A DNA stretch of 64,000 bases from Candidatus Kapaibacterium sp. (GTDB taxonomy: Bacteria > Bacteroidota > Ignavibacteria > Kapaibacteriales > UBA2268). The position numbers and the translations under genes were made by a program. The notes under the pieces are model-generated. The model saw only the letters and a program-made list of their open reading frames with translations. It had not been told where the DNA came from and did no database searches. This document shows positions 47,891 to 57,419 of this stretch, piece after piece. The stretch is taken from the NCBI GenBank assembly GCA_963665665.1, contig OY762428.1, forward strand, positions 3,744,001 to 3,808,000. Reading direction: 5' to 3'. Position 1 is the first letter of the stretch. Every line of letters begins with the position of its first letter.

Positions 47891-50530
47891 ATGAAGAAAA
47901 ACATTGATAAAACAGCAAATAAAATTAAAAGTTCTATTGAAGAAGAAGCCATTAATCCAGTCGCAATCAATTGCCCGGATTTTCCAATCGTGGGAATCGG
48001 TGCCTCTGCCGGAGGGCTGGAGGCTTTAGAACAATTCCTGGGTAATGTCCCTGATAACTGTGGGATGGCTTTCGTTGTGATTCAGCATCTGGATCCGCAT
48101 CACGTTGGAGTAATGCCCGAATTATTGCAGCGAACCACCAGTATGAAAGTGCTGCAGGTTAGCGATAAAATGCAAGTGCAGCCAAATCACTTGTATGTAA
48201 TTCCCCCGAACAAAAGCATGTCCATATTAAAAAACTTTCTGCATTTGTTTGAACCGGTTGAAACAAGGGGACTCAGGCTTCCGATAGATTTGTTTTTCCG
48301 TTCATTGGCAGAGGACTTGCAGGAAAGGAGTATTGGCATTATTCTTTCCGGTATGGGCTCAGACGGCAGTCTGGGGTTGCAGGCGATCAAAGAAAAGAAC
48401 GGCATCGTGCTTGTTCAGGATCCCCTCACAGCCAAATTCGACGGTATGCCCGGTAGCGCAATCAAATCCGTGGTCGTGGATATTTCTGCAGCAGCAAATG
48501 AACTGCCTGCAAAACTGATAGATTTTATCAAATACAAACCTGCCGGAATGAGGAAAATCGGAATTGATAATGATAAAAAGAACTATCTCGAAAAAATAAT
48601 GATTCTGTTGCGTTCCCAAACCGGACACGATTTTTCGTTGTATAAGAAAAATACTTTGTACAGACGCTTAGAAAGGCGTATAAACATACATCAAATTGAC
48701 AAAATTGAGCATTACGTCAGGTTTTTGCAGAATAACCCAACCGAAATAGATATACTTTTTAAAGAGTTGTTAATCGGGGTAACTAATTTTTTCCGCGAAG
48801 CTGAAGTTTGGGAAAAACTGAAAGATAGCATCTTCCCTGAATTGTTCAGGGATTTACCTGACGGATATATCCTTCGGGCATGGGTTGCAGGTTGCTCTAC
48901 CGGAGAAGAAGCATATTCATTGGCAATTATTTTCCAGGAAGCTTACCAAAAAATAAAACATGAAAAAAATATAACACTCCAAATATTCGCGACTGATATT
49001 GACAGCGACGCAATAGCAATCGCCAGAAATGGATTTTTCAGCTCGAATATTGCTACTGATGTTTCGGAGGAAAGGCTCAGGAATTATTTTTCAACCGACG
49101 AAAATGGCTTTCGGATTAATTCGGCCATTCGCGAAATGGTGATTTTTGCGACACACAATGTAATCAAAGACCCACCATTCACAAAATTAGACATGCTCTC
49201 TTGCCGTAATTTATTGATTTACATGGAAGCCGAATTGCAGAAGAGGCTGATGAACCTATTTCATTACAGTTTAAATCAAGGCGGTTTCATGCTACTTGGC
49301 AATGCCGAAAATGATAATTCTCAAACCAATCATTTCATACCAATTGATGAAAAGCAAAAGCTGTATAAACGCTCTGAAACCCCGGTGAATTCTCAATTGC
49401 TTGAATTCCCAAGTTCATTTCACCATACCCCGGTACAAACATCCCTCGAAATCAAAACAGTGAAAAATTCAGAAAATATCCAGACTATCGCGGATCAAAT
49501 CATTCTTCAGCGATTCGCGCCGGCAAGTGTATTAATAAACCGGGATGGAGATATTTTATATATCACCGGCCGTACGGGTAAATATTTGGAACCCGCTGCC
49601 GGAAAAGCCAACTGGAATATCTACGCCATGGCAAGGGAGGGATTGAACACCGAACTTCCCGGAGCCATCAGGAAAGCCAGACAAAGTTTCGAACCCGTAA
49701 TATTGCATAATATCAAAGTTGGAACTAATGGCGGAACTCAAATCGTTAATATTACCTTTCAAATGATTGAAAAACCTGATGCTATTAAAGGTACAATAAT
49801 GATTGTGTTTGAAGATGTCGCCGATATTCCCGGGCCGGTCAGAAAAAAAATGAAAAATGTCAACGCCGAATCCACTATTCGAGAGCATGAATTAGAACTT
49901 GAAGTACAGAGGTCAAAAGAAGAACTTCAAAAAACTCGCGAGGAAATGCAGACAACGCAGGAAGAATTGAAATCGACCAACGAGGAAATGCAGTCCACAA
50001 ATGAAGAATTGCAGTCAACCAACGAAGAACTCACTACGTCCAAGGAAGAAATGCAAAGCCTGAATGAAGAGCTTCAAACCGTTAACATTGAATTGCAAAG
50101 CAAGATAAATGACTACATGGTAGCCAATAACGATATGAAGAATCTCCTGAACAGTACAGATATCGCCACCTTGTTCCTCGACAAGGAGCTAAACATCCGG
50201 CGTTATACCGACCAGTTGACAAAACTTTTCAAGTTGCGCCCGACTGATGTGGGAAGGCCTTTTACAGACATGGTAACGGATTTGCGTTATCCCGAAATAA
50301 CCGATCATGCCATGGAGGTATTGCGAACCCTCGTATTCATAGAAACCGACATTTCAACGCACGACCAACGTTGGTTCAAGGTTCGAATAATGCCCTACCG
50401 CACTTTCGACGACCGAATAGACGGGCTGGTGATAACATTCATTGATATCAGCCAGGCTAAAAAAGTCGAGAACGAGCTTAATGAAACTATTGCTTTACTT
50501 CAAAAGCATGATTTATACAAAAAAACATGA
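47891..50530 (+). CDS. CheB methylesterase-CheR methyltransferase-PAS fusion (CheBR)
   Basis: CheB triad in GASAGG, IQHL and GMGSDG; CheR motifs AGCSTGEEAYS and SCRNLLIY; STNEE coiled-coil repeats; C-terminal PAS. Confidence 0.93.
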   Translation: MKKNIDKTANKIKSSIEEEAINPVAINCPDFPIVGIGASAGGLEALEQFLGNVPDNCGMAFVVIQHLDPHHVGVMPELLQRTTSMKVLQVSDKMQVQPNHLYVIPPNKSMSILKNFLHLFEPVETRGLRLPIDLFFRSLAEDLQERSIGIILSGMGSDGSLGLQAIKEKNGIVLVQDPLTAKFDGMPGSAIKSVVVDISAAANELPAKLIDFIKYKPAGMRKIGIDNDKKNYLEKIMILLRSQTGHDFSLYKKNTLYRRLERRINIHQIDKIEHYVRFLQNNPTEIDILFKELLIGVTNFFREAEVWEKLKDSIFPELFRDLPDGYILRAWVAGCSTGEEAYSLAIIFQEAYQKIKHEKNITLQIFATDIDSDAIAIARNGFFSSNIATDVSEERLRNYFSTDENGFRINSAIREMVIFATHNVIKDPPFTKLDMLSCRNLLIYMEAELQKRLMNLFHYSLNQGGFMLLGNAENDNSQTNHFIPIDEKQKLYKRSETPVNSQLLEFPSSFHHTPVQTSLEIKTVKNSENIQTIADQIILQRFAPASVLINRDGDILYITGRTGKYLEPAAGKANWNIYAMAREGLNTELPGAIRKARQSFEPVILHNIKVGTNGGTQIVNITFQMIEKPDAIKGTIMIVFEDVADIPGPVRKKMKNVNAESTIREHELELEVQRSKEELQKTREEMQTTQEELKSTNEEMQSTNEELQSTNEELTTSKEEMQSLNEELQTVNIELQSKINDYMVANNDMKNLLNSTDIATLFLDKELNIRRYTDQLTKLFKLRPTDVGRPFTDMVTDLRYPEITDHAMEVLRTLVFIETDISTHDQRWFKVRIMPYRTFDDRIDGLVITFIDISQAKKVENELNETIALLQKHDLYKKT

Positions 50531-50572
50531 AAAAGCAATAAACATGAAAAAGCAATAAACATGAAAAAACAA
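50523..50572 (+). repeat. 17-bp direct repeat, about three copies, at the cheBR/kinase junction
   Basis: AAACATGAAAAAGCAAT at 50523 and 50540; AAACATGAAAAAACAA at 50557. Confidence 0.9.
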
Positions 50573-53035
50573 AAAAGCAATTTAACCGATGAGGCAATTC
50601 TACGCCAGAAGGCGGAAGAGCTTCTAAGGGCGAAGGCTTCTAAGGGCTTCGCTAAACCCAAAACTACTGAAAGCGACCTGTTGAGACTGGTTCACGAATT
50701 GCAGGTACACCAGATTGAACTGGAAATGCAGAATGAAGAGCTATTAATCGCAAAAGAAAGGGCGGAACTTGCCGAAGAAAAATATTCTGATTTATACGAC
50801 TTCGCACCTTCCGGCTATCTTGCTCTTACTAAAGAAGGTGATATTTCAGTATTAAATTTAGCTGCTGCCCGTTTACTTGGAAGTACTCGCTCGTATCTGA
50901 TAAATAAAAAATTCGCACTATTCGTTTCCCCGGATACCCGTTTATCCTTTAACAGGTTTTCCCAGGAGATTTTTAAAAGTCGTATTAAGCATTCATGTCA
51001 GATTGTTATTATAGATAAGGATAATTTACCGTTATATATAAACATTGATGGGATAATCAGTGAAAATAATCAATTATGTATCTTGACTTTAACTGACGTT
51101 TCCATCCACGTACGAGATCAGGAAGCCCTGCGCAAAAAAGAAGCCTTGCAAATGAAGATGGTCTCAAATATCGGCGATGTTATAGTAATAATCGATAAAT
51201 GGGGAATCAATAGATATAAAAGCCCGAATGTTGAAGCTTTGTTCGGTTGGAAACCTGAAGAACTCGTTGGTAAAAATACCTGGGATAACGTGCATCCTGA
51301 TGATTTGAAGAAGGGGCATGATTTTATTGAGTCGCTTGCAGACAAACCCAACTCGAAGGGAACTATAGAATTACGATACAGGCGCGGGGACGGGAGTTAT
51401 GTATGGATTGAAATTACTGTTGTTAATTTGTTTCATGACCCAGATGTTGGCGGACTTTTAGGAAATTATCATGATATCAGCGAACGAATACGAATAGAGA
51501 ATAGTCTTCGGGAAAAAGATCTTCAATTCAGGAAACTGTCTTCGAATGCCCCTGTTGTAATTTATCAAATTACCAGGCGTGATGACAGAAGTTATTGTGT
51601 TCCCATTTCTTCCGATAGAATTACTAACATTTTTGGATGCCTTCCGGAAGACCTGGTTGACACTTTTGATCCTATCAGCAGGGTCATTCATCCCGAGGAT
51701 CTGGAGAAATTTTTATACGATATTGAATATTCGGCAGAGTATCTGACTCCTTTCAGCTGTGAATTCAGGGTTCGGGTTCCCGGAAGAAATAATCAATGTA
51801 TTTTAACTAACTCAATTCCTGAAAAATTACCCGATGGTAGTGTAACCTGGTACGGATTTTTTGCCGATATCACAGATAAAAAAAGAATAGAAGGAGAATT
51901 GCAGAAGCTGGCAAAACTCGAATCTCTTGGAATCCTTGCCGGGGGTATAGCCCATAATTTCAAAAATATACTCACGACAATATCTCTTAGCGCCGAATTG
52001 GCAAGGATAAAACCAAACCGAACAGAATACCACCTTGACAAAATAACTAAATCTATCAGCCAGGCATCTGCCCTGGCAACAAGATTCCAGACATTTTCGA
52101 AATGCGACTCTCCTGTACTGAGTGCTACCCAGATAAATGAAACTATAAAGGAGGCTTGCGAAATATCTTTAGCCGGTTCCAGGGCAAATATTTATTTGAA
52201 CCTTGACAGTAATTTGCCGGATATTATGGCCGATGAGAAACAAATGAACGAGGTTTTTACAAATCTGTTAATCAATGCTGACCAGGCAATGCCGAATGGA
52301 GGCAATATTAATATCAGTACTCGTTACGTGCTATTGCAAAAAGGGCAAATAGTAAATTTACCGGATGGAAAATATATTTGTATTGAAATCAAAGATGAAG
52401 GGGGAGGAATACCTAAATCGATAATAAATGAAATATTTACACCATTTTTCACTACAAAGTCAGACGGGCAGGGCTTAGGCCTGGCTTCTGTTTTTTTTAT
52501 TATTGAAAAGCATAACGGAGCAATTAACGTAGAAACAGAAATTGATAAAGGTACGAACTTCATTATTTATTTACCGATCGGTATTTGCAAGAAAATGAAT
52601 ATTGAATTTGAAGAATTAGCAGTTACATTTGATAAAAGATTAAAAATACTTCTTTTGGATGATGATGTCAACATAACATCTAACTTCGAGGAAATGGCCA
52701 GGGAATTGAATTTCAATATGCTTTGCATGAATGACCCGCGTCTGGCTATTGAACAATATGAGTTTAGTATGGAAAGTGAGCCCTTAGATTTGGTTATTCT
52801 TGATTTGACTTTAAAAGGCTATTCGATGGGGGGATTGGATGTATTAAACGAGCTTAAAAAGCTTAATCCCCGAATAAAAGCCCTTGTTTTCAGCGGGCAT
52901 TCCTCGAGGCCAATTGTAGCGGATTACGAGAAGTACGGTTTTGTCGGGAGAATTGAAAAACCAATCAACTGGAAACAATTTAATAATGAACTCGATAGAA
53001 TCCAAAGGCTTATAAATGCTGAAAAAAACCAGTAA
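50561..53035 (+). CDS. Multi-PAS hybrid histidine kinase with C-terminal receiver domain
   Basis: HELQVHQIELEMQNEEL coil; three PAS domains; GGIAHNFKN H-box; FTPFFTTK and GQGLGL; receiver motifs LLDDD, ILD and IEKP. Confidence 0.92.
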   Translation: MKKQKSNLTDEAILRQKAEELLRAKASKGFAKPKTTESDLLRLVHELQVHQIELEMQNEELLIAKERAELAEEKYSDLYDFAPSGYLALTKEGDISVLNLAAARLLGSTRSYLINKKFALFVSPDTRLSFNRFSQEIFKSRIKHSCQIVIIDKDNLPLYINIDGIISENNQLCILTLTDVSIHVRDQEALRKKEALQMKMVSNIGDVIVIIDKWGINRYKSPNVEALFGWKPEELVGKNTWDNVHPDDLKKGHDFIESLADKPNSKGTIELRYRRGDGSYVWIEITVVNLFHDPDVGGLLGNYHDISERIRIENSLREKDLQFRKLSSNAPVVIYQITRRDDRSYCVPISSDRITNIFGCLPEDLVDTFDPISRVIHPEDLEKFLYDIEYSAEYLTPFSCEFRVRVPGRNNQCILTNSIPEKLPDGSVTWYGFFADITDKKRIEGELQKLAKLESLGILAGGIAHNFKNILTTISLSAELARIKPNRTEYHLDKITKSISQASALATRFQTFSKCDSPVLSATQINETIKEACEISLAGSRANIYLNLDSNLPDIMADEKQMNEVFTNLLINADQAMPNGGNINISTRYVLLQKGQIVNLPDGKYICIEIKDEGGGIPKSIINEIFTPFFTTKSDGQGLGLASVFFIIEKHNGAINVETEIDKGTNFIIYLPIGICKKMNIEFEELAVTFDKRLKILLLDDDVNITSNFEEMARELNFNMLCMNDPRLAIEQYEFSMESEPLDLVILDLTLKGYSMGGLDVLNELKKLNPRIKALVFSGHSSRPIVADYEKYGFVGRIEKPINWKQFNNELDRIQRLINAEKNQ

Positions 53036-53308
53036 GTAACTCTGAATTTTCCTTCATCCAGATGCCACGTAATTTTTCATGCCACAGTTTTGATTATAAA
53101 CAATACTATCTGCTCTCTCCCAAACACACGCAGTGTGAAACCCTCCCCAAAGAGAGGGCTTTGAAGAAGAACAAGGCGGCAATGGATTCAAACATTGGTG
53201 AAATGCTTCTGACCAGGAGGTCATTGCCTTCAAACAATGGGGGATCGGCCTTATACAAATATTTTTCGTAATATAATATTATTACAATAAGGATAAACTA
53301 AATTTTCT

Positions 53309-53348
53309 AAAAAGAAAAGATCTTCCAGGGGCTTGCCCGGAAGATCTG
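53309..53348 (-). terminator. Terminator of the Rieske/cytochrome operon
   Basis: AGATCTTCC...GGAAGATCT stem; minus strand continues TTTCTTTTT. Confidence 0.7.
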
Positions 53349-53375: not shown

Positions 53376-53870
53376 TTAAAAATATATTTCCAGAAGGCCT
53401 GTACCGGCATCAAACTTACTCGGGAATTCTTTTAGCGCTTTTTCGGCGGGGCCTTTGATTGGATTTCCGTGGTCAAATGGATCGAACCTGGAGCCGTGGC
53501 AGTAGCATACAATATCGGTGCGCCCCGGTCGCGGCAGACGTAAGTCGTCGCCGAAGCAGTTGGCGTGAGTGCAAAGCGAGGAGAAACATGCAAAAGCATC
53601 ATCGGCAATACGAACGATTATTATCGGGATTCCAAAGTTTACATGAGTCCATCTTTGAATCACAGACCCTCCAATCCGGGCCAGTGTTTCTTCGGGGTTT
53701 GTATCGAATTCCACCATTCCGCCGGTCAGTCCCTGGTTCTTCTCCCTGTCGAACTCGCAGGAAACCAGTCCGCTGACGGCTGCAACAGTTGCCGGGCAAA
53801 GGCCAAGCAATGCCAGGCCTTTTTTCATAAAATCCCTTCTCTCATCCGATAAAGTTTTATCTCTTTCCAT
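53376..53870 (-). CDS. Tat-exported Rieske [2Fe-2S] lipoprotein
   Basis: ERRDFMKK twin-arginine signal, LVSC lipobox, CTHANC...CYCHGSRF cluster motifs, GPA. Confidence 0.88.
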   Translation of the reverse strand: MERDKTLSDERRDFMKKGLALLGLCPATVAAVSGLVSCEFDREKNQGLTGGMVEFDTNPEETLARIGGSVIQRWTHVNFGIPIIIVRIADDAFACFSSLCTHANCFGDDLRLPRPGRTDIVCYCHGSRFDPFDHGNPIKGPAEKALKEFPSKFDAGTGLLEIYF

Positions 53871-54652
53871 TACCTGCTTACCGCCATTTTCTTAGTTCTC
53901 TTTCTGCCGTCCGCTGTTTCCAGACTAATAATATAAGCGCCAACCTGCAATCCAGAAACGTTAATATCAATATCATAGTTTCCGGAATCAACAAATTTAT
54001 TGCTGAAAACGGTTAAAACCTGATTCCCGATTGAATCGTAAACTTTCAGGGAATATTGTCCGGGAAGTTCCACGCCATAGCCGACGGATGTTGTGTTGCT
54101 GCACGGGTTGGGATAGTTTTGCCGGAGATAAAGCAATCCTTCGCTTTCGTCTTCAATACCAACAAGAACTGCGGGAATATCAAGATACAGGCTGTCGCCG
54201 CCATTCCATCGAACTTCAAATGTCTGCAGGTCTTCGGCTGCAGGCCCGTCCACATAAGTGCCGTCGGCTTTAAAAATTGTGCCGTGGCCGGAGCATTCAA
54301 ACTCGTGGTAAATATCAAGGTCGTAAACCGATTCACCTTCGTGCGGGCACAATGTATAAATGCAGGAATAGTGTTTGCCGTATTCTTCGTAATCAAGTTT
54401 GGTGACGATAATTGGTGCAAAAAAACCATCAGTGATATCGTTTGGAATTTGTATCCTGACAGATCCCCAGACTTCCTTTAGTTCGGGATAATCTTTCAGG
54501 CTGATGTGGTATGTACCCATTATTTCATCTTTATTCTTTTTAAGCGAAGGAGTAACTACTCCTTTCAATATGTGCGGGCAGGCAGGAGTAAATATACTGA
54601 TAGCCAGCATATTTTTCAGGAACTGCCTTCTGCGATTGCTGATGTTTTTCAT
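53870..54652 (-). CDS. Tat-signal Rieske [2Fe-2S] protein with T9SS C-terminal sorting domain
   Basis: NRRRQFLK; CPH-x15-CSGH; GPA; tail QNYPNP...LKVYD..G...GAYII...TKKMAVSR. Confidence 0.85.
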   Translation of the reverse strand: MKNISNRRRQFLKNMLAISIFTPACPHILKGVVTPSLKKNKDEIMGTYHISLKDYPELKEVWGSVRIQIPNDITDGFFAPIIVTKLDYEEYGKHYSCIYTLCPHEGESVYDLDIYHEFECSGHGTIFKADGTYVDGPAAEDLQTFEVRWNGGDSLYLDIPAVLVGIEDESEGLLYLRQNYPNPCSNTTSVGYGVELPGQYSLKVYDSIGNQVLTVFSNKFVDSGNYDIDINVSGLQVGAYIISLETADGRKRTKKMAVSR

Positions 54653-54672
54653 TTATATTGCCTCGATAAATA

Positions 54673-55743
54673 TCAAAAATTATCTGTTGGTTTTTTAAAT
54701 TTCTTATTTGCAAGGAACTCGTGGTCAGTAAGTGATTTCAGGAAAGCAACCAGGTCTGCTTTTTCCTGTTCGGTCAGGTTCAGGGGCCTCATCAGCGGGT
54801 CGCGATTGAAGAAGGGCTTCCCGCCCCTGTTATAATGGTTAATAACGTCTTCGAGTGTTTCAAGGTCTCCGTTGTGATAGTAGGGCGCTGTCATTTCAAT
54901 ATTTCTGAGCGTGGGGGTGATAAATACTCCCCAGTCCTTGAAATTCATTGTTTTATAATACCTGCCTTTATCAAAATAATGTGTTGTAACACCGGTATTA
55001 TGGAATTTCATATCTGTAAAGAATATTCCCGAATGGCACTGCGAGCAGTTGGTTTTAGTAGTATCAAAGTACAGTTTCATCCCGCGTATTTCGGATTCGT
55101 TCAGAGCGGCCAGGTCTCCGCGCCTGTATTTGTCATAATCAGAGTTGCCGGAGATAAGAGTTCTTACAAATGTTGAAATTGCCAGGGATACATTAGTTGC
55201 CGTCGGTTTTGCCCCTTTGCCGAAAGCTTTTTCGAACATGGAGGGATAAAGCGGATGTTCGGACAACCTTTTTTCAATTTCATTGGTATCGGCGCCCAGA
55301 ATTTGGTTCAGCCAGAGGCTTCTGTAGGCAGGCCCTTCAATTCTTCTGCCACGTCCGTCCCAGAAAAGCTTATCCCTGTAGGCAGCATTTATCAGGCACA
55401 TGGCATTTCGCGGTTCCGGTTCAAGCTCATTTGCCCTGCTCACAGGTGTGCAGTCCGAGAAAGAATACTCAGGCTTCATACAATGAGAGCAGGATGGCAG
55501 ATTCATGTCGCGGGAAAGCAGTTTTTCATAAAAAAGCCTTCGGCCAAGTTCAGCTTTTTCCTTTGTAATTGGATTGTATTCCGGTTGTGGAACGGGCGGA
55601 AAATCTTCCGGTACAGTCAAAAAGCCTTCTTTCTTTTCAGTTTCCGACTCAACAATGGAGGAGCATGAAAAAGATGAAAGAAGAGCCGTAAGAATTATGA
55701 GAATAGAAAATTTATATATTAGAATCGATTTATTACTGTTCAT
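54673..55743 (-). CDS. Diheme cytochrome c peroxidase/MauG/MbnH-family lipoprotein with atypical first heme motif
   Basis: FSC lipobox; LGRRLFYE..LS; CSHCM; FWDGR; CSQCH; TPTLRNI..TAPYYHNG. Confidence 0.88.
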   Translation of the reverse strand: MNSNKSILIYKFSILIILTALLSSFSCSSIVESETEKKEGFLTVPEDFPPVPQPEYNPITKEKAELGRRLFYEKLLSRDMNLPSCSHCMKPEYSFSDCTPVSRANELEPEPRNAMCLINAAYRDKLFWDGRGRRIEGPAYRSLWLNQILGADTNEIEKRLSEHPLYPSMFEKAFGKGAKPTATNVSLAISTFVRTLISGNSDYDKYRRGDLAALNESEIRGMKLYFDTTKTNCSQCHSGIFFTDMKFHNTGVTTHYFDKGRYYKTMNFKDWGVFITPTLRNIEMTAPYYHNGDLETLEDVINHYNRGGKPFFNRDPLMRPLNLTEQEKADLVAFLKSLTDHEFLANKKFKKPTDNF

Positions 55744-55955
55744 TTCGTTCACCCGGCAGTTATTATTATTCCAGAGTAAATATATTCATTAACCTAATCA
55801 AAAAATGTTCATTTCCAAAGCAATACTTTTATCGCTAAAAGTAATGTTTAGCTTTCTTTCCTGTTAATAATAACAAATGTAATTAAAGAAAATTACAATT
55901 GAAATATTTTTATTAATTTATAATCCAGTTTTGTGTAATTAACAATATAAAAGAT

Positions 55956-56495
55956 ATGAAAAGCTTTAATAAGATCATAATGCTTGTTTTTGTGGCAATG
56001 GCGCTTTTGGCAGCCTGCGATGATAATGATACGGTGGAAAGAGCCGAATACGTTACTATGGATGAATTACTAAAATTACCCGGTTACGAGTGGGTAACCT
56101 ACGAAATGAAAGACTATTCCCCCGATCCTGTAATGGTTTCGGATATTGCCGAGGCTTTTGATATCAACCGGCACAGATTTCTTTTCTTCCTGAAGCCCGG
56201 ATGTACCTGCATCGATCCTGAAGTTCCGCTGGCATGGATGTTTAAAACCCTTGATGAAGCTGATATCAGTGATTTTTACAGGGAAATCTATATTATGAAG
56301 GATAAAGATATCGAGCATCCCTATCAGGACAATTTTCAGTTGAACCGTGTGTCATCATATTTGCTTATGGATATGACAGATACAACTGTAATTCTATCAC
56401 TCAGGGATACAATCGATCAGATAATATTTTACTCTCCTGACAGCCTTAAGTATTTGAATATTGAAGAATTGGTTCTTCACGCTCTTCAAAAATAA
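55956..56495 (+). CDS. Lipoprotein, possibly thioredoxin-like fold
   Basis: LLAAC lipobox; FLFFLKPGCTCID at the position of a Trx active site. Confidence 0.5.
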   Translation: MKSFNKIIMLVFVAMALLAACDDNDTVERAEYVTMDELLKLPGYEWVTYEMKDYSPDPVMVSDIAEAFDINRHRFLFFLKPGCTCIDPEVPLAWMFKTLDEADISDFYREIYIMKDKDIEHPYQDNFQLNRVSSYLLMDMTDTTVILSLRDTIDQIIFYSPDSLKYLNIEELVLHALQK

Positions 56496-56517
56496 GTTTC
56501 ATGTTTCGGATAATGTT

Positions 56518-56925
56518 ATGAAGCATTGGTTAGTAAAATCAGATCCCGACAGTTATGGCTGGGAGGAAATGAAAAGAGACAGAAAAACCGATTGGGACGG
56601 GGTAAGAAATTATCAGGCAAGAAATAACCTGAAAGAAATGAAAAAAGGCGACAAAGTACTTTTCTACCACAGTGTTAAAGATAAAACCGTTGTTGGTGTT
56701 ACAGAAGTTAGCAGGGAGTTTTACCAGGATCCCACAACGGATGATGAAAGATGGGTGGCCGTAGAGCTAACGTTTTCGGAAGAGTTTAAAAATGAAGTAA
56801 GCCTGAAAGATATTAAAGGGCGGGCCTCTTTATCTGAAATTGCTCTGATCAGGCAGTCAAGATTATCGGTTATGCCCTTAACAAAGAAAGAATTTACAGA
56901 GGTATGTAAGATGGGTGGTATATAA
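56518..56925 (+). CDS. EVE domain protein
   Basis: HWLVKSDP, WDGVRNYQARN, GDKVLFYHS, RLSVMP. Confidence 0.93.
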   Translation: MKHWLVKSDPDSYGWEEMKRDRKTDWDGVRNYQARNNLKEMKKGDKVLFYHSVKDKTVVGVTEVSREFYQDPTTDDERWVAVELTFSEEFKNEVSLKDIKGRASLSEIALIRQSRLSVMPLTKKEFTEVCKMGGI

Positions 56926-56986: not shown

Positions 56987-57208
56987 ATGACACGTCAGTT
57001 TGGAAGCATTATTAGCAAGGATGAGGATATGTTCGTTGCCTTGTGTCCGGAATTGGATATTGTCAGCCAGGGATATACGATTGAGGAAGCACGGTATAAT
57101 CTGAAAGAAGCAATTGAACTTTTCTTTGAATGCGCTCCTGATAGTGAAGTAAAAAGAAGGATGAAGTCAGAATCTTATTATACCAATATTGAGGTTGAGA
57201 TTGCCTAA
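56987..57208 (+). CDS. hicB: HicB-family antitoxin (short, no DNA-binding domain)
   Basis: FVALCPELDIVSQGYTIEEARYNLKEAIELF. Confidence 0.85.
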   Translation: MTRQFGSIISKDEDMFVALCPELDIVSQGYTIEEARYNLKEAIELFFECAPDSEVKRRMKSESYYTNIEVEIA

Positions 57209-57419
57209 AAGGAAAGTATATTCCGGAAAGGATATTATTAAAATTTTAGAAATATATGGCTTTATTGAAATTAGACAAAAAGGAAGCCATATTGTAATGC
57301 AAAAGTCAACTAAAAATTCAAAAATAACGATACCTGTTCCTGATCATAAAGAACTTAAAGCCGGGACATTGAATTCAATAATCAGACAATCAGGGTTAGA
57401 TAAAAGGATTTTGAAATAA
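57201..57419 (+). CDS. hicA: HicA-family mRNA interferase toxin (TTG start)
   Basis: SGKDIIKIL..GF...RQKGSH...VPDHKELKAGTLNSIIRQ; overlaps the hicB stop. Confidence 0.88.
   Translation: MPKRKVYSGKDIIKILEIYGFIEIRQKGSHIVMQKSTKNSKITIPVPDHKELKAGTLNSIIRQSGLDKRILK

What the first reader, a model, noticed from the sequence alone, without database searches (positions are those of the whole stretch)
53376..55743. Candidate cell-surface heme/Fe-S electron-transfer operon: atypical MauG-like diheme + T9SS Rieske + Rieske lipoprotein
Seen: three co-oriented genes with a 20-bp gap carrying a GAGG RBS, then a TAATG overlap at 53870, and one terminator at the end. All three encode exported redox proteins: a diheme lipoprotein, a Tat Rieske protein with a T9SS CTD and a Tat Rieske lipoprotein. 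No cytochrome b, oxygenase, MauAB or MbnP partner is present. Established: Rieske proteins normally work in bc/b6f complexes or oxygenases, and MauG/MbnH work with MADH or MbnP. Inference: this is a self-contained redox relay reaching the outer surface (extracellular electron uptake or disposal, or a surface redox modification). I do not recognise it as a described system.
Basis: partly seen in the sequence, partly recalled or inferred. Interest (0 to 1): 0.85.

Follow-up and report, generated by a model that had tools for sequence, protein, structure and literature searches.

The report
Exported haem plus two-Rieske operon
A small operon, kept in one group of Bacteroidota relatives, encodes a MauG-like haem lipoprotein that has lost one of its two haem sites and two exported iron-sulfur (Rieske) proteins, one carrying a tag for secretion to the cell surface; this combination has not been described.

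Summary
The three minus-strand genes, the 20-nt gap with GAGG, the TAATG overlap and the terminator are all present as described. Gene order is conserved in every related locus I could read, in at least 18 other genomes (Kapabacteria/Ignavibacteria-labelled MAGs).

Corrections and additions:
- **The haem protein is not a normal dihaem.** Its first CxxCH is CSHCM. This is CSHC[M/L/F/K] (twice CAHC/CGHC) in 85 of the 120 best homologues listed. Only the second site (CSQCH plus a MauG-type Tyr) is canonical.
- **Most relatives have a fourth gene**, a canonical dihaem paralogue.
- **The nearest relatives outside the clade are MbnH-like genes**, some directly beside MbnP.
- **Both Rieske proteins keep all cluster ligands and a twin-arginine motif.** One keeps a T9SS type-A tail, the other a lipobox.
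- **The genome has SprA, PorU and TatC but no cytochrome b.**

Best reading (confidence 0.4): an exported one-electron module derived from an MbnH-type system, with Rieske proteins as dedicated redox partners. A surface electron conduit is possible but has no membrane-crossing part.

Verdict: a new variant of known kinds; interest 0.6.

The parts
54673..55743 (-). HemeA: Sec-exported lipoprotein of the MauG/MbnH branch of bacterial cytochrome c peroxidases. 356 aa from the ATG; an alternative GTG start lies at 55752.
   Evidence: ORF. PF03150 128.6 bits. TIGR04039 MbnH 241 bits, below the cut-off of 362.85; best PDB match is 6e1c, E 9.6e-41. P0021.
55663..55665 (-). Lipobox cysteine of HemeA (..LLSSFS-C)
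   Evidence: codon checked. The Cys is nearly invariant in 44 orthologues (C27).
55477..55491 (-). Remodelled first (P-haem) site, CSHCM in place of CxxCH
   Evidence: CSHC[M58/L20/F3/K2] plus CAHCL and CGHCM make 85 of 120 homologues; the site aligns with CSSCH of MbnH.
55399..55401 (-). Met115, specific to the CSHC-type clade. It replaces Pro of the PRNxP motif.
   Evidence: Met in 99% of 85 CSHC-type proteins and in 3% of 30 canonical ones.
55351..55365 (-). FWDGR, holding the conserved inter-haem tryptophan
   Evidence: all rows. W128 invariant..
55033..55047 (-). Canonical second (E-haem) site, CSQCH
   Evidence: (C233, C236, H237 invariant).
54832..54834 (-). Tyr304 (Tyr307 in the 359-aa frame), the predicted distal ligand of the E haem (MauG type)
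   Evidence: it aligns with the last matched residue (275) of the 1nml CcP chain; that this is the E-haem Met ligand is recalled; invariant. His-Tyr defines MauG-type enzymes.
54653..54672 (-). 20-nt intergenic gap containing GAGG
53870..54652 (-). Rieske-CTD: a Tat-signal Rieske [2Fe-2S] domain followed by a T9SS type-A C-terminal sorting domain
54614..54634 (-). Twin-arginine motif RRRQFLK of Rieske-CTD
   Evidence: R8 and R9 are invariant in 18 sequences.
54284..54349 (-). Rieske cluster boxes CPH ... CSGH, without the disulfide cysteines
   Evidence: C102, H104, C120 and H123 are invariant.
53885..54115 (-). T9SS type-A CTD (residues 180-256)
   Evidence: PF18962 36 bits. TIGR04183 32.4 bits. 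PNP, G209, Y240 and K255 are invariant.
53376..53870 (-). RieskeLipo: a Tat-signal Rieske lipoprotein of bc type. Its start overlaps the upstream stop (TAATG).
53823..53840 (-). Twin-arginine motif RRDFMK of RieskeLipo
   Evidence: R11 and R12 are invariant in 16 orthologues.
53757..53759 (-). Lipobox cysteine (LVS-C) followed by an invariant Glu
   Evidence: C38 and E39 are invariant.
53496..53573 (-). Rieske boxes CTHANC ... CYCH, with both disulfide cysteines
   Evidence: C100, H102, C105, C122, C124 and H125 are invariant.
53308..53347 (-). Intrinsic terminator (12-bp stem, T tract)
55956..56495 (+). Divergent neighbour: a 179-aa lipoprotein of no known family with a conserved KPxCxC motif. 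It is linked in some relatives only, so membership of the unit is doubtful.
   Evidence: window and 4 of the 6 same-family loci compared; no Pfam; alignment; no NCBIfam; not found within 6 kb in L027-L035.

Best explanation
The operon encodes an exported, lineage-restricted one-electron redox module that evolved from an MbnH/MauG-type system.

**Components**
- HemeA is a Sec-exported lipoprotein. It keeps only the MauG-type E haem (CSQCH with a His/Tyr ligand set) and the inter-haem Trp. Its peroxidatic P-haem site has been rebuilt into CSHC[M/L/F] plus a clade-specific Met115.
- The two Rieske proteins are loaded with [2Fe-2S] in the cytoplasm and exported folded by Tat. One becomes lipid-anchored. 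The other carries a T9SS tail that should send it through the outer membrane.

**Most likely mechanism**
The two Rieske centres act as dedicated single-electron partners of the haem protein(s), in the way cytochrome c551 or azurin serves a bacterial cytochrome c peroxidase. They re-reduce an oxidised centre. In most relatives that centre is the P haem of the canonical paralogue HemeB. In this genome, which lacks HemeB, it would be the remodelled CSHC/Met site or an unknown partner.

**Shown:** gene structure, synteny, conservation of ligands and signals, ancestry, and presence of the export machinery.

**Inferred:** cofactor loading, contacts between the proteins, direction of electron flow, the oxidant, and final location.
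For: **Synteny**
- HemeA-type gene(s) lie upstream of Rieske-CTD in 9 of 9 same-family loci. RieskeLipo lies downstream in 8 of 9; the ninth is cut by a contig end.
- In the 13 GTDB loci the figures are 13 of 13 and 12 of 13. A further 5 of 5 CSHC-type loci show the same order.

**Clade and ancestry**
- In a sample of 401 genomes of the class, the CSHC type was seen only in the window's genome and 5 others of its family, always beside Rieske-CTD. The 24 other loci examined are canonical dihaems with no Rieske neighbour.
- Five of those 24 lie beside an MbnP-cluster gene; 2 of the 5 were tested by Pfam (96.8 and 95.3 bits).
- In the tree, the CSHC type plus the syntenic canonical paralogues form one side of a branch with support 99. 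The CSHC clade has support 96 (quick IQ-TREE).

**Cofactor sites**
- The second CxxCH and the Tyr are kept in all 120 homologues.
- The Tyr aligns with the last matched residue (275) of the 1nml CcP chain; that residue 275 is the E-haem Met ligand is recalled, not from a call. His-Tyr marks MauG-type enzymes (PMC11892367 passage).
- Rieske ligands and the RR motifs are invariant.
- Both Rieske profiles match respiratory-type Rieske proteins (bc1, b6f, AioB, PetC3), not oxygenases.

**Genome background**
- There is no cytochrome b in the closed genome, so these are not bc-complex subunits.
- SprA, PorU and TatC are present.
- A second protein with both a Pfam TAT_signal and a CTD exists in the genome.

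**Expression signals**
- The genes have translational-coupling-like junctions and one terminator.
Against: - No test of binding could be run, and no structure was obtained.
- No RNA run is listed, so co-transcription is inferred from gene spacing only.
- MauG-type E haems sit near -100 to -200 mV (PMC11892367 passage). bc-type Rieske centres are usually far more positive (recalled). Simple Fe(III)/Fe(II) exchange would therefore be uphill in one direction, and the scheme needs high-valent or oxidised acceptor states.
- The window's genome lacks HemeB, so the proposed oxidant-reactive centre is hypothetical here.
- A T9SS-exported Rieske and periplasmic lipoproteins would end up in different compartments unless the lipoproteins are also surface-exposed. 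That is only hinted at by acidic residues after the lipid Cys (the LES abstract).
- No electron source is encoded in the unit.
- The module is patchy: 9 of 24 relatives of the same family hold it.
Confidence: 0.4

Rival explanations
1. Outer-surface electron conduit. The T9SS delivers the Rieske-CTD protein to the cell surface. With surface-flipped lipoproteins (HemeA, RieskeLipo) it passes respiratory electrons to, or takes them from, extracellular substrates such as Fe(III), humics or an electrode.
For: - The type-A CTD is above curated cut-offs and conserved.
- SprA and PorU are present.
- All three proteins are exported.
- Acidic residues follow the lipid Cys in RieskeLipo orthologues (CE[KFM]D). 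This loosely recalls the Bacteroidota lipoprotein export signal K-(D/E)2 (abstract of PMC5080379).
- The genome also encodes a 611-aa five-CxxCH cytochrome and a 213-aa monohaem protein, both with CTDs.
- Tat-Rieske-CTD is a wide family: 59 of the best 150 representative clusters have both an RR motif and a CTD.
Against: - No porin-cytochrome, multihaem wire or other membrane-crossing part lies in or beside the unit in any locus read.
- There are only three one-electron centres, and no link to the quinone pool.
- The CTD multihaem cytochrome does not co-occur with the module. It was found in 1 of 24 relatives of the same family, one that lacks the module.
- The haem protein's relatives are MbnH/MauG-type enzymes, not electron-transfer cytochromes.
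- More distant Rieske-CTD genes stand alone among unrelated genes.
Confidence: 0.2
2. Protein-cofactor maturation. As MauG does with preMADH and MbnH with MbnP, the haem protein(s) oxidise a residue of a neighbouring gene product. The Rieske-CTD protein is then a substrate, not a donor.
For: - HemeA's best named matches are MbnH and MauG models and the MbnH structure 6e1c.
- Canonical relatives in the same class sit directly beside MbnP genes.
- MauG-type enzymes install Trp-derived cofactors in a partner protein (PMC11951088 passages).
- Trp62 of Rieske-CTD (..VWGSV..) is invariant in the 14 haem-linked-type sequences of that alignment. It is replaced by F, N, G and G in the four distant homologues that have no haem neighbour.
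Against: - HemeA lacks the P-haem motif that makes the oxidant, and the window's genome has no HemeB.
- RieskeLipo has no invariant Trp or Tyr.
- The Rieske genes lie downstream of the haem genes, whereas the MbnP-cluster genes lie upstream of theirs.
- The intact Tat motifs and cluster ligands argue that the Rieske proteins are working Fe-S proteins.
Confidence: 0.15
3. Metal (copper or iron) handling inherited from the MbnPH lineage. The CSHC plus Met115 site of HemeA binds a metal ion, and the Rieske proteins act as metal reductases at the envelope.
For: - The ancestry is shared with MbnP-linked genes.
- The clade-specific invariant residues are two Cys, one His and one Met, typical soft-metal ligands (the chemistry is recalled).
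- MbnP is a copper-binding protein (PMC11951088 passage).
Against: - No transporter, TonB-dependent receptor or chaperone is conserved beside the unit.
- The spatial proximity of Cys85, His87, Cys88 and Met115 could not be checked without a model.
- CxHC also resembles the redox-active motifs of DsbA and PDI (recalled), so a disulfide is as likely as a metal site.
Confidence: 0.1

Closest known systems
MbnH (with MbnP), PDB 6e1c
   Same: - It is the best solved-structure match: E 9.6e-41 over residues 47-355.
- It is the best NCBIfam model, TIGR04039.
- The second CxxCH, the Tyr in the xYxxGG motif, the inter-haem Trp and the RN/TPxLRN motifs are all shared.
- Relatives in the same class are paired with MbnP.
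   Different: - The score lies below the family cut-off: 241 against 362.85 bits.
- The first CxxCH is replaced by CSHCM.
- There is no adjacent MbnP.
- The partners are two Rieske proteins encoded downstream.
MauG (tryptophan tryptophylquinone maturase)
   Same: - It belongs to the same superfamily branch, with a His/Tyr E haem.
- TIGR03791 scores 173 bits, and PDB 3l4m and related entries match at E about 1e-11.
   Different: - The score lies far below the cut-off (443.85 bits).
- There are no mauA/mauB genes.
- The P-haem motif is lost.
Canonical bacterial dihaem cytochrome c peroxidase with a small redox-protein donor
   Same: - The fold family is the same (1nml, 1eb7 and 1iqc at E 1e-35 to 1e-37).
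- The idea of a dedicated one-electron donor protein is the same.
   Different: - Canonical enzymes have a His/Met E haem and two CxxCH motifs.
- Their donors are c-type cytochromes or cupredoxins (recalled), not Rieske proteins.
- The genome has its own separate 451-aa CcP with three CxxCH motifs.
PetC3, the cyanobacterial Rieske lipoprotein (PDB 5cxm)
   Same: - It is the best PDB hit of the Rieske-CTD profile (E 2.8e-9) and also a hit of the RieskeLipo profile.
[quoted passage not shown] That it works outside a b6f complex is recalled.
   Different: - It comes from a different phylum.
- It has no haem-protein neighbour and no T9SS tail.
- Its own function is also unsettled.
Rieske subunits of bc1/b6f complexes and arsenite oxidase (AioB)
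   Same: - RieskeLipo has the CTHxxC...CxCHGS boxes with the disulfide.
- Tat-type leaders are shared.
- Both profiles hit these proteins first.
   Different: - All NCBIfam scores are far below cut-off.
- There is no cytochrome b in the genome.
- There is no molybdopterin subunit nearby.
T9SS type-A cargo proteins
   Same: - The C-terminal domain is above the TIGR04183 and PF18962 cut-offs.
- The genome holds 353 ORFs ending in a CTD by an in-session HMM, as well as SprA and PorU.
   Different: - Only 2 of the 353 CTD ORFs in this genome have a convincing twin-arginine leader, and the Rieske-CTD protein is one of them.
- The T9SS review passages I read name Tat only in a general sentence about two-step secretion.
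- The cargo here is an Fe-S protein.

Membership tests
MauG/MbnH-type bacterial dihaem cytochrome c peroxidase | Two CxxCH haem-binding motifs | tested here: not met
   The first motif is CSHCM and the second is CSQCH. The same loss is seen in 85 of 120 homologues.
MauG/MbnH-type bacterial dihaem cytochrome c peroxidase | Tyr as distal ligand of the E haem (His-Tyr) | tested here: met
   The Tyr aligns with the last matched residue (275) of the 1nml CcP chain; that this is the E-haem Met ligand is recalled. It is invariant in 44 orthologues and present in 120 of 120 homologues. The criterion comes from a PMC11892367 passage. Ligation itself is not shown.
MauG/MbnH-type bacterial dihaem cytochrome c peroxidase | Inter-haem tryptophan and calcium-site motifs | tested here: met
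   FWDGR, RN and TPTLRN are conserved. The assignment of these motifs to the Ca site is recalled.
MbnH family (TIGR04039) | Score above the curated cut-off, and an adjacent MbnP | tested here: not met
   241 bits against a cut-off of 362.85. No MbnP lies in the locus. One marginal MbnP-like ORF lies 0.8 Mb away.
Rieske [2Fe-2S] domain (PF00355) | CxH ... CxxH ligands and a score above the gathering cut-off | tested here: met
   27.0 and 39.6 bits against a cut-off of 20.3. The ligands are invariant. The cluster itself is not testable here.
bc1/b6f complex Rieske subunit | A cytochrome b partner and an equivalog-level score | tested here: not met
   PF00033 gives no match in the closed genome. 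NCBIfam scores are 18-34 bits against cut-offs of 97-275.
T9SS type-A cargo | A C-terminal sorting domain above cut-off, and T9SS machinery in the genome | tested here: met
   TIGR04183 32.4 bits (cut-off 23) and PF18962 36.0 bits (cut-off 27). SprA 956.6 bits and PorU 853.4 bits.
T9SS type-A cargo | Actual secretion and CTD cleavage | not testable with these tools
   This needs secretome or surface proteomics in wild type and a T9SS mutant.
Tat substrates | A twin-arginine consensus before a hydrophobic stretch, and TatC present | tested here: met
   RRRQFLK and RRDFMK. RR is invariant. TatC scores 211.3 bits. The Pfam TAT_signal model did not report either protein at E <= 0.01.
Bacterial lipoproteins | A lipobox with an invariant Cys at the end of the leader | tested here: inconclusive
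   The Cys is invariant in RieskeLipo and nearly invariant in HemeA. Positions -3 to -1 are loose (SFS, LVS). No lipoprotein predictor was on hand.

The most novel reading that the evidence does not exclude
Two things could both be new.

1. **A Tat-then-T9SS export route.** A cofactor-loaded iron-sulfur protein would be carried to the bacterial cell surface. This would be a whole class of Fe-S T9SS cargo: 59 of the best 150 representative clusters of this Rieske subfamily carry both an RR motif and a CTD.
2. **A new redox centre in a MauG/MbnH-type scaffold.** The peroxidatic haem would have been replaced by a new centre built from CxHC plus Met. This could be a DsbA/PDI-like redox disulfide or a Cys2-His-Met metal site. 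It would be wired through the conserved Trp to the remaining His/Tyr haem and fed by two dedicated Rieske centres.
Probability: 0.2. Interest if true: 0.85.

Novelty: new variant of a known kind. Interest (0 to 1): 0.6.

Why it matters
**For secretion.** T9SS cargo is treated as Sec-dependent enzymes, adhesins and toxins. A conserved family of twin-arginine, cluster-binding Rieske proteins with T9SS tails would mean the system moves folded metalloproteins. It would also mean Bacteroidota relatives can place Fe-S redox centres outside the cell.

**For MauG/MbnH enzymology.** A large clade has given up the catalytic haem motif but keeps the E haem, the bridging Trp and a new invariant CxHC/Met set. 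This is a natural experiment on what the scaffold can do without the bis-Fe(IV) chemistry.

**For the physiology of these little-studied, mostly uncultured bacteria.** The module could be an oxidant-defence, metal-handling or extracellular redox trait. Every one of these readings is directly testable with three small proteins.

Tried and rejected
- **bc-complex or oxygenase Rieske.** Rejected. The genome has no cytochrome b, both profiles hit respiratory-type rather than oxygenase-type Rieske proteins, and both carry export signals.
- **Functional link to neighbouring genes.** The blocks conserved near the module in relatives are a lipid A acyltransferase, a heptosyltransferase, a GWxTD protein and an EVE protein. 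I take these as inherited gene order, not function.
  - The divergent 179-aa lipoprotein is beside the module in the window and 4 of the 6 same-family loci compared. It was not found within 6 kb in L027-L035. I left it as doubtful.
- **Link to the CTD multihaem cytochrome of this genome.** Rejected (found in 1 of 24 relatives of the same family, one that lacks the module).
- **A general Rieske-CcP partnership in other phyla.** 21 metagenome loci with tandem-Rieske Tat lipoproteins show no HemeA/HemeB-like neighbour. ORF calling there was crude (high-GC DNA).
- **Bacteroidota-type promoter pattern TTTG-N17-21-TAnnTTTG.** One match in the window, far from the operon, against 3.4 expected by chance. 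Sigma-70-like sites were at chance level. No promoter is assigned.
- **Expression.** No RNA holder is listed among the 9 runs. I did not lay reads, because contigs cannot show transcripts.
- **Literature.** No relevant paper was found for:
  - MauG + Rieske (39 papers held both terms; I saw the 15 listed, none on such a system);
  - Rieske + T9SS (2 papers, listing only);
  - type IX secretion + twin-arginine (37 papers; listing plus passages of one review);
  - type IX secretion + extracellular electron transfer + cytochrome (5 papers, listing only);
  - Kapabacteria + Rieske (0 papers).
  - Supplements were closed and not consulted. Subscription papers on MbnH (JBC 2019, PNAS 2021; recalled) were not read.
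- **Tree.** The tree is the quick IQ-TREE, because the careful search did not finish. It used 28 randomly drawn CSHC-type proteins longer than 320 aa plus the window's own; the rest were left out.
- **In-session CTD HMM.** The CTD counts rest on an uncurated HMM that I built from this family's tails and iterated on the genome's ORFs.

Full report
**1. What is there**

The minus strand between 53376 and 55752 holds three ORFs with no other long ORF that competes.

- Gene 1 is 54673-55743 from the ATG. This is the 356-aa form held in the protein collection as P0021. A GTG three codons upstream is also open.
- A 20-nt gap, TATTTATCGAGGCAATATAA, follows. Gene 2 is 53870-54652. Gene 3 is 53376-53870, and its ATG shares one base with the TAA of gene 2.
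- A 12-bp hairpin with a T tract lies at 53347-53318. It is the only minus-strand terminator-like site inside or just after the unit. It folds at -21 kcal/mol, z = -3.95.
- The unit is bracketed by a convergent histidine-kinase gene and a divergent lipoprotein gene.

**2. The three proteins**

*Gene 1 (HemeA).*
- It matches CCP_MauG (128.6 bits). Its best NCBIfam hits are the MbnH model (241 bits, cut-off 362.85) and the MauG model (173 bits, cut-off 443.85).
- Its best solved relative is the MbnH structure 6e1c (E 9.6e-41), ahead of canonical peroxidases.
- It has a Sec-type leader ending in a cysteine that is nearly invariant in 44 orthologues.
- Where MbnH reads CSSCH, HemeA reads CSHCM. 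The second site, CSQCH, is intact.
- The Tyr in HYNRGG aligns with the last matched residue (275) of the 1nml peroxidase chain. That residue 275 is the methionine ligand of the electron-transfer (E) haem is recalled, not from a call. According to the passage I read in PMC11892367, His-Met at the E haem marks canonical enzymes and His-Tyr marks the MauG type.
- That the first CxxCH binds the peroxidatic (P) haem is established knowledge of the family, recalled here.

*Gene 2 (Rieske-CTD).* It has RRRQFLK, then a Rieske domain (CPH...CSGH, without the two disulfide cysteines), then a type-A T9SS sorting domain above both curated cut-offs.

*Gene 3 (RieskeLipo).* It has RRDFMK, a lipobox cysteine, and bc-type boxes CTHANC...CYCHGS.

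Profiles of both Rieske proteins hit bc1, b6f, SoxF, AioB and the cyanobacterial PetC3 first, not oxygenases.

**3. Conservation**

*Same family.* A search of 40 relatives found full-length Rieske-CTD homologues in 9 of 24 genomes of the same family and in a few other families of the order.
- In the nine same-family loci, a HemeA-like gene lies directly upstream in 9 of 9. RieskeLipo lies directly downstream in 8 of 9; the ninth locus ends at a contig end.

*GTDB species set.* A pattern scan gave 13 loci, four of them the same places as above. Their records are titled Kapabacteria, Kapaibacterium, Ignavibacteria or Bacteroidetes MAGs; two are labelled Hyphomicrobiales, which I take as binning labels.
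- A haem gene lies upstream in 13 of 13, and RieskeLipo downstream in 12 of 13.
- Together this is at least 18 genomes besides the window's.

*Invariant features.*
- RR, the four cluster ligands and the PNP/G/Y/K positions of the CTD are invariant in Rieske-CTD.
- RR, the lipid Cys with the following Glu, and all six cysteines/histidines of the boxes are invariant in RieskeLipo.

**4.

*(a) The altered first haem motif is a clade character, not a local mutation.*
- Among the 120 best homologues, 85 read C[S/A/G]HC followed by M (59), L (21), F (3) or K (2). Thirty read CxxCH, and five are truncated.
- All 120 keep the second CxxCH and the Tyr.
- Residues that are at least 90% conserved in the 85 and rare in the 30 are Ser86, His87, Met115, Arg131, Ala139, Arg141 and Ser142. 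The bridging Trp128 and the RN/TPxLRN motifs stay conserved.
- Leu or Phe after the second Cys cannot ligate iron. Haem attachment by the usual maturation systems needs the motif's His (recalled). A canonical P haem is therefore unlikely.
- What replaces it is unknown. CxHC is also the form of the DsbA and PDI redox motifs (recalled). Cys2-His-Met would also suit a soft metal.

*(b) Most relatives have four genes.*
- A canonical dihaem paralogue (HemeB, CA[S/N]CH) sits beside HemeA in 9 of the 10 scan loci whose upstream part is on the contig.
- The window, L015 and L017 have HemeA only. One locus (L025) has a single gene with CISCH.
- The window's genome has only one other CCP_MauG protein, a 451-aa enzyme with three CxxCH motifs elsewhere.

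*(c) In ten Kapaibacterium-type loci RieskeLipo is followed by two more genes.* These are a 128-aa lipoprotein with a CX4CH motif, and in nine of the ten a PsbP-like protein. Both have unlinked homologues in the window's genome.

*(d) Ancestry.*
- In a sample of 401 genomes of the class, 74 hold a HemeA homologue at E <= 1e-60.
- Of the 29 loci returned besides the window's own, the five best are CSHC-type, each with HemeB and the start of Rieske-CTD beside it.
- The other 24 are canonical dihaems with no Rieske neighbour.
- Five of these 24 lie directly downstream of a gene of one cluster. The two tested members of that cluster are MbnP (96.8 and 95.3 bits).
- In a quick maximum-likelihood tree of 90 rows, HemeA plus the syntenic HemeB proteins form one side of a branch with support 99. 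The canonical and MbnP-linked ones form the other. The CSHC clade has support 96 and includes one CSHCH protein.

So the module looks like an MbnH-type system in which the partner was exchanged and one paralogue lost its catalytic haem motif.

**5. The Rieske-CTD family is larger than this operon**

A profile of the Rieske domain alone, run against 1.84 billion representatives, found 76 proteins at E <= 1e-30. The best 150 divide as follows, using an uncurated CTD HMM built here:
- 66 end in a CTD, and 59 of these have an RR motif in the first 45 residues.
- 47 are Tat lipoprotein-like proteins with two or three Rieske domains in tandem and no CTD.
- 37 are single-domain proteins without a recognised CTD.

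Distant Rieske-CTD genes in other families of the order stand among unrelated genes. Two lie beside a thioredoxin-like [2Fe-2S] ferredoxin gene, and one of these is followed by an EB_dh haem-domain protein.

The tandem forms show that two such domains can work together. However, 21 metagenome loci holding them showed no CcP-like neighbour.

**6. Genome background**

- The closed 5.46-Mb genome (99.5% complete) has SprA, PorU and TatC.
- It has no cytochrome b. It has five NrfD-family genes, one about 5 kb from its single haem-copper oxidase gene. I read that pair as an alternative complex III with an oxidase, by inference only.
- It has four Rieske genes in all: the two here, a 144-aa one without a leader, and a third Tat-type one of 152 aa.
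- Of 353 ORFs ending in a CTD, only two have a convincing twin-arginine leader. They are Rieske-CTD and a DUF1501 protein that also passes the Pfam TAT_signal model.
- Two c-type cytochromes, of 611 aa (five CxxCH) and 213 aa, carry CTDs. The larger one does not co-occur with the module.

**7. How it most likely works**

The parts are one His/Tyr c-haem, two Rieske clusters and a rebuilt site next to a conserved electron-hopping Trp. All are exported, and nothing in the unit spans a membrane.

The closest working analogy is a bacterial peroxidase or MauG-type enzyme with its own one-electron partners. The Rieske centres would return electrons to a centre that an oxidant has oxidised. That centre is the P haem of HemeB in most relatives, and the CSHC/Met site or an unknown partner here.

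This fits the ancestry and the presence of HemeB in most genomes. It also fits the fact that MauG-type E haems are too low in potential to serve as ordinary acceptors from bc-type Rieske centres (potentials recalled).

It does not explain why one Rieske protein carries a T9SS tail. It also leaves the window's three-gene version without a shown oxidant-reactive centre. I give it 0.4.

The rivals:
- **Surface-conduit reading (0.2).** It explains the tail and the acidic residues after the lipid cysteines, which weakly resemble the Bacteroidota surface-export signal (abstract of PMC5080379). It lacks any input path.
- **Maturase-substrate reading (0.15).** It is favoured by homology and by Trp62, which is invariant only in the haem-linked-type Rieske-CTD sequences. 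The loss of the P-haem motif weakens it.
- **Metal-handling role (0.1).** It remains open.

**8. What could not be done**

- No RNA run is listed.
- The localisation signals are read from motifs, because no signal-peptide predictor was available.

**9. Verdict**

This is a real, conserved and, in the library searched, undescribed operon. Its parts belong to known families, but three features are new:
- the partnership of a MauG/MbnH-type protein with Rieske proteins;
- the haem-site remodelling across a whole clade;
- the Tat-plus-T9SS Rieske architecture.

It is a new variant of known kinds. Its function is unproven. Interest 0.6.

Noticed in passing
window 55956-56495 (+) and 56461-56925 (+): A divergent 179-aa lipoprotein of no Pfam or NCBIfam family has a conserved KPxCxC motif and an acidic CDDND after the lipid Cys. 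An EVE-domain gene follows it. The lipoprotein is beside the module in the window and 4 of the 6 same-family loci compared, the EVE gene in the window and 3 of the 6. Neither was seen in the Kapaibacterium-type loci.
   Followed up: partly
G000:C1:5260309-5262144 (-), outside the window (L152): A 611-aa protein has five CxxCH motifs (Cytochrome_C7/c3-like, with weak MtrC/MtrF-domain and ExtKL similarity) and a T9SS type-A CTD. It is a multihaem cytochrome predicted to be T9SS cargo. It does not co-occur with the Rieske module: it was found in 1 of 24 relatives of the same family.
   Followed up: partly
G000:C1:2279182-2280762 (-) (L154) and G000:C1:378862-379503 (+) (L153): A DUF1501 protein has both a Pfam TAT_signal and a T9SS CTD. 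It is the only other convincing Tat-plus-CTD ORF among the 353 CTD ORFs. A 213-aa Temptin_C monohaem protein also carries a CTD.
   Followed up: partly
P0173, P0183, P0200 and 42 more representative proteins; loci L072-L092: A family of Tat-signal, lipobox-bearing proteins carries two Rieske domains in tandem, nearly all with the disulfide cysteines (a few have three domains). They appear to come from high-GC organisms. No haem-protein neighbour was found in 21 metagenome loci, and I know of no description of them.
   Followed up: partly
L026-L035, just downstream of RieskeLipo; own-genome homologues at G000:C1:4990515-4990859 and 4984597-4985640: In Kapaibacterium-type loci the module is followed by a 128-aa lipoprotein with NCGLSYCH (CX4CH, no Pfam or NCBIfam hit) and a PsbP-like 348-aa protein. 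Both are unlinked in the window's genome.
   Followed up: partly
L022:8933-10387 (+) and L021/L022 upstream genes: In two other families of the order, a Rieske-CTD homologue lies directly after a thioredoxin-like [2Fe-2S] ferredoxin gene. In one of them it is followed by an Ig-like + EB_dh (haem-b domain) protein.
   Followed up: no
window 54467-54469 (Trp62 of Rieske-CTD): Trp62 (..VWGSV..) is invariant in the 14 haem-linked-type sequences of the alignment. It is replaced by F, N, G and G in the four distant homologues that have no haem neighbour.
   Followed up: no
G000:C1:141283-141741 (+) (L041:1273-1731): A third Tat-type Rieske protein (152 aa, MKRRDFIK..., CTHFG...CSSFGH) stands alone after a CTD-bearing beta-propeller-like gene.
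   Followed up: no
G000:C1:4606488-4607234 (-) (L159:1989-2735): An orphan 248-aa ORF has a marginal, partial MbnP match (29.3 bits, model positions 16-88 of 189). It lies 0.8 Mb from the operon with no CcP gene nearby.
   Followed up: partly
window 47891-50530 (+) and 50561-53035 (+): Two large signalling genes lie just downstream and convergent. By eye, one is a CheB/CheR-like methylesterase-methyltransferase fusion with coiled-coil and PAS parts, and the other a PAS histidine kinase with a receiver domain. Neither was run against any library.
   Followed up: no
window 56987-57208 (+) and 57189-57419 (+): Two small overlapping ORFs look by eye like a HicB-type antitoxin and a HicA-type toxin. 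This is recalled resemblance and was not tested.
   Followed up: no
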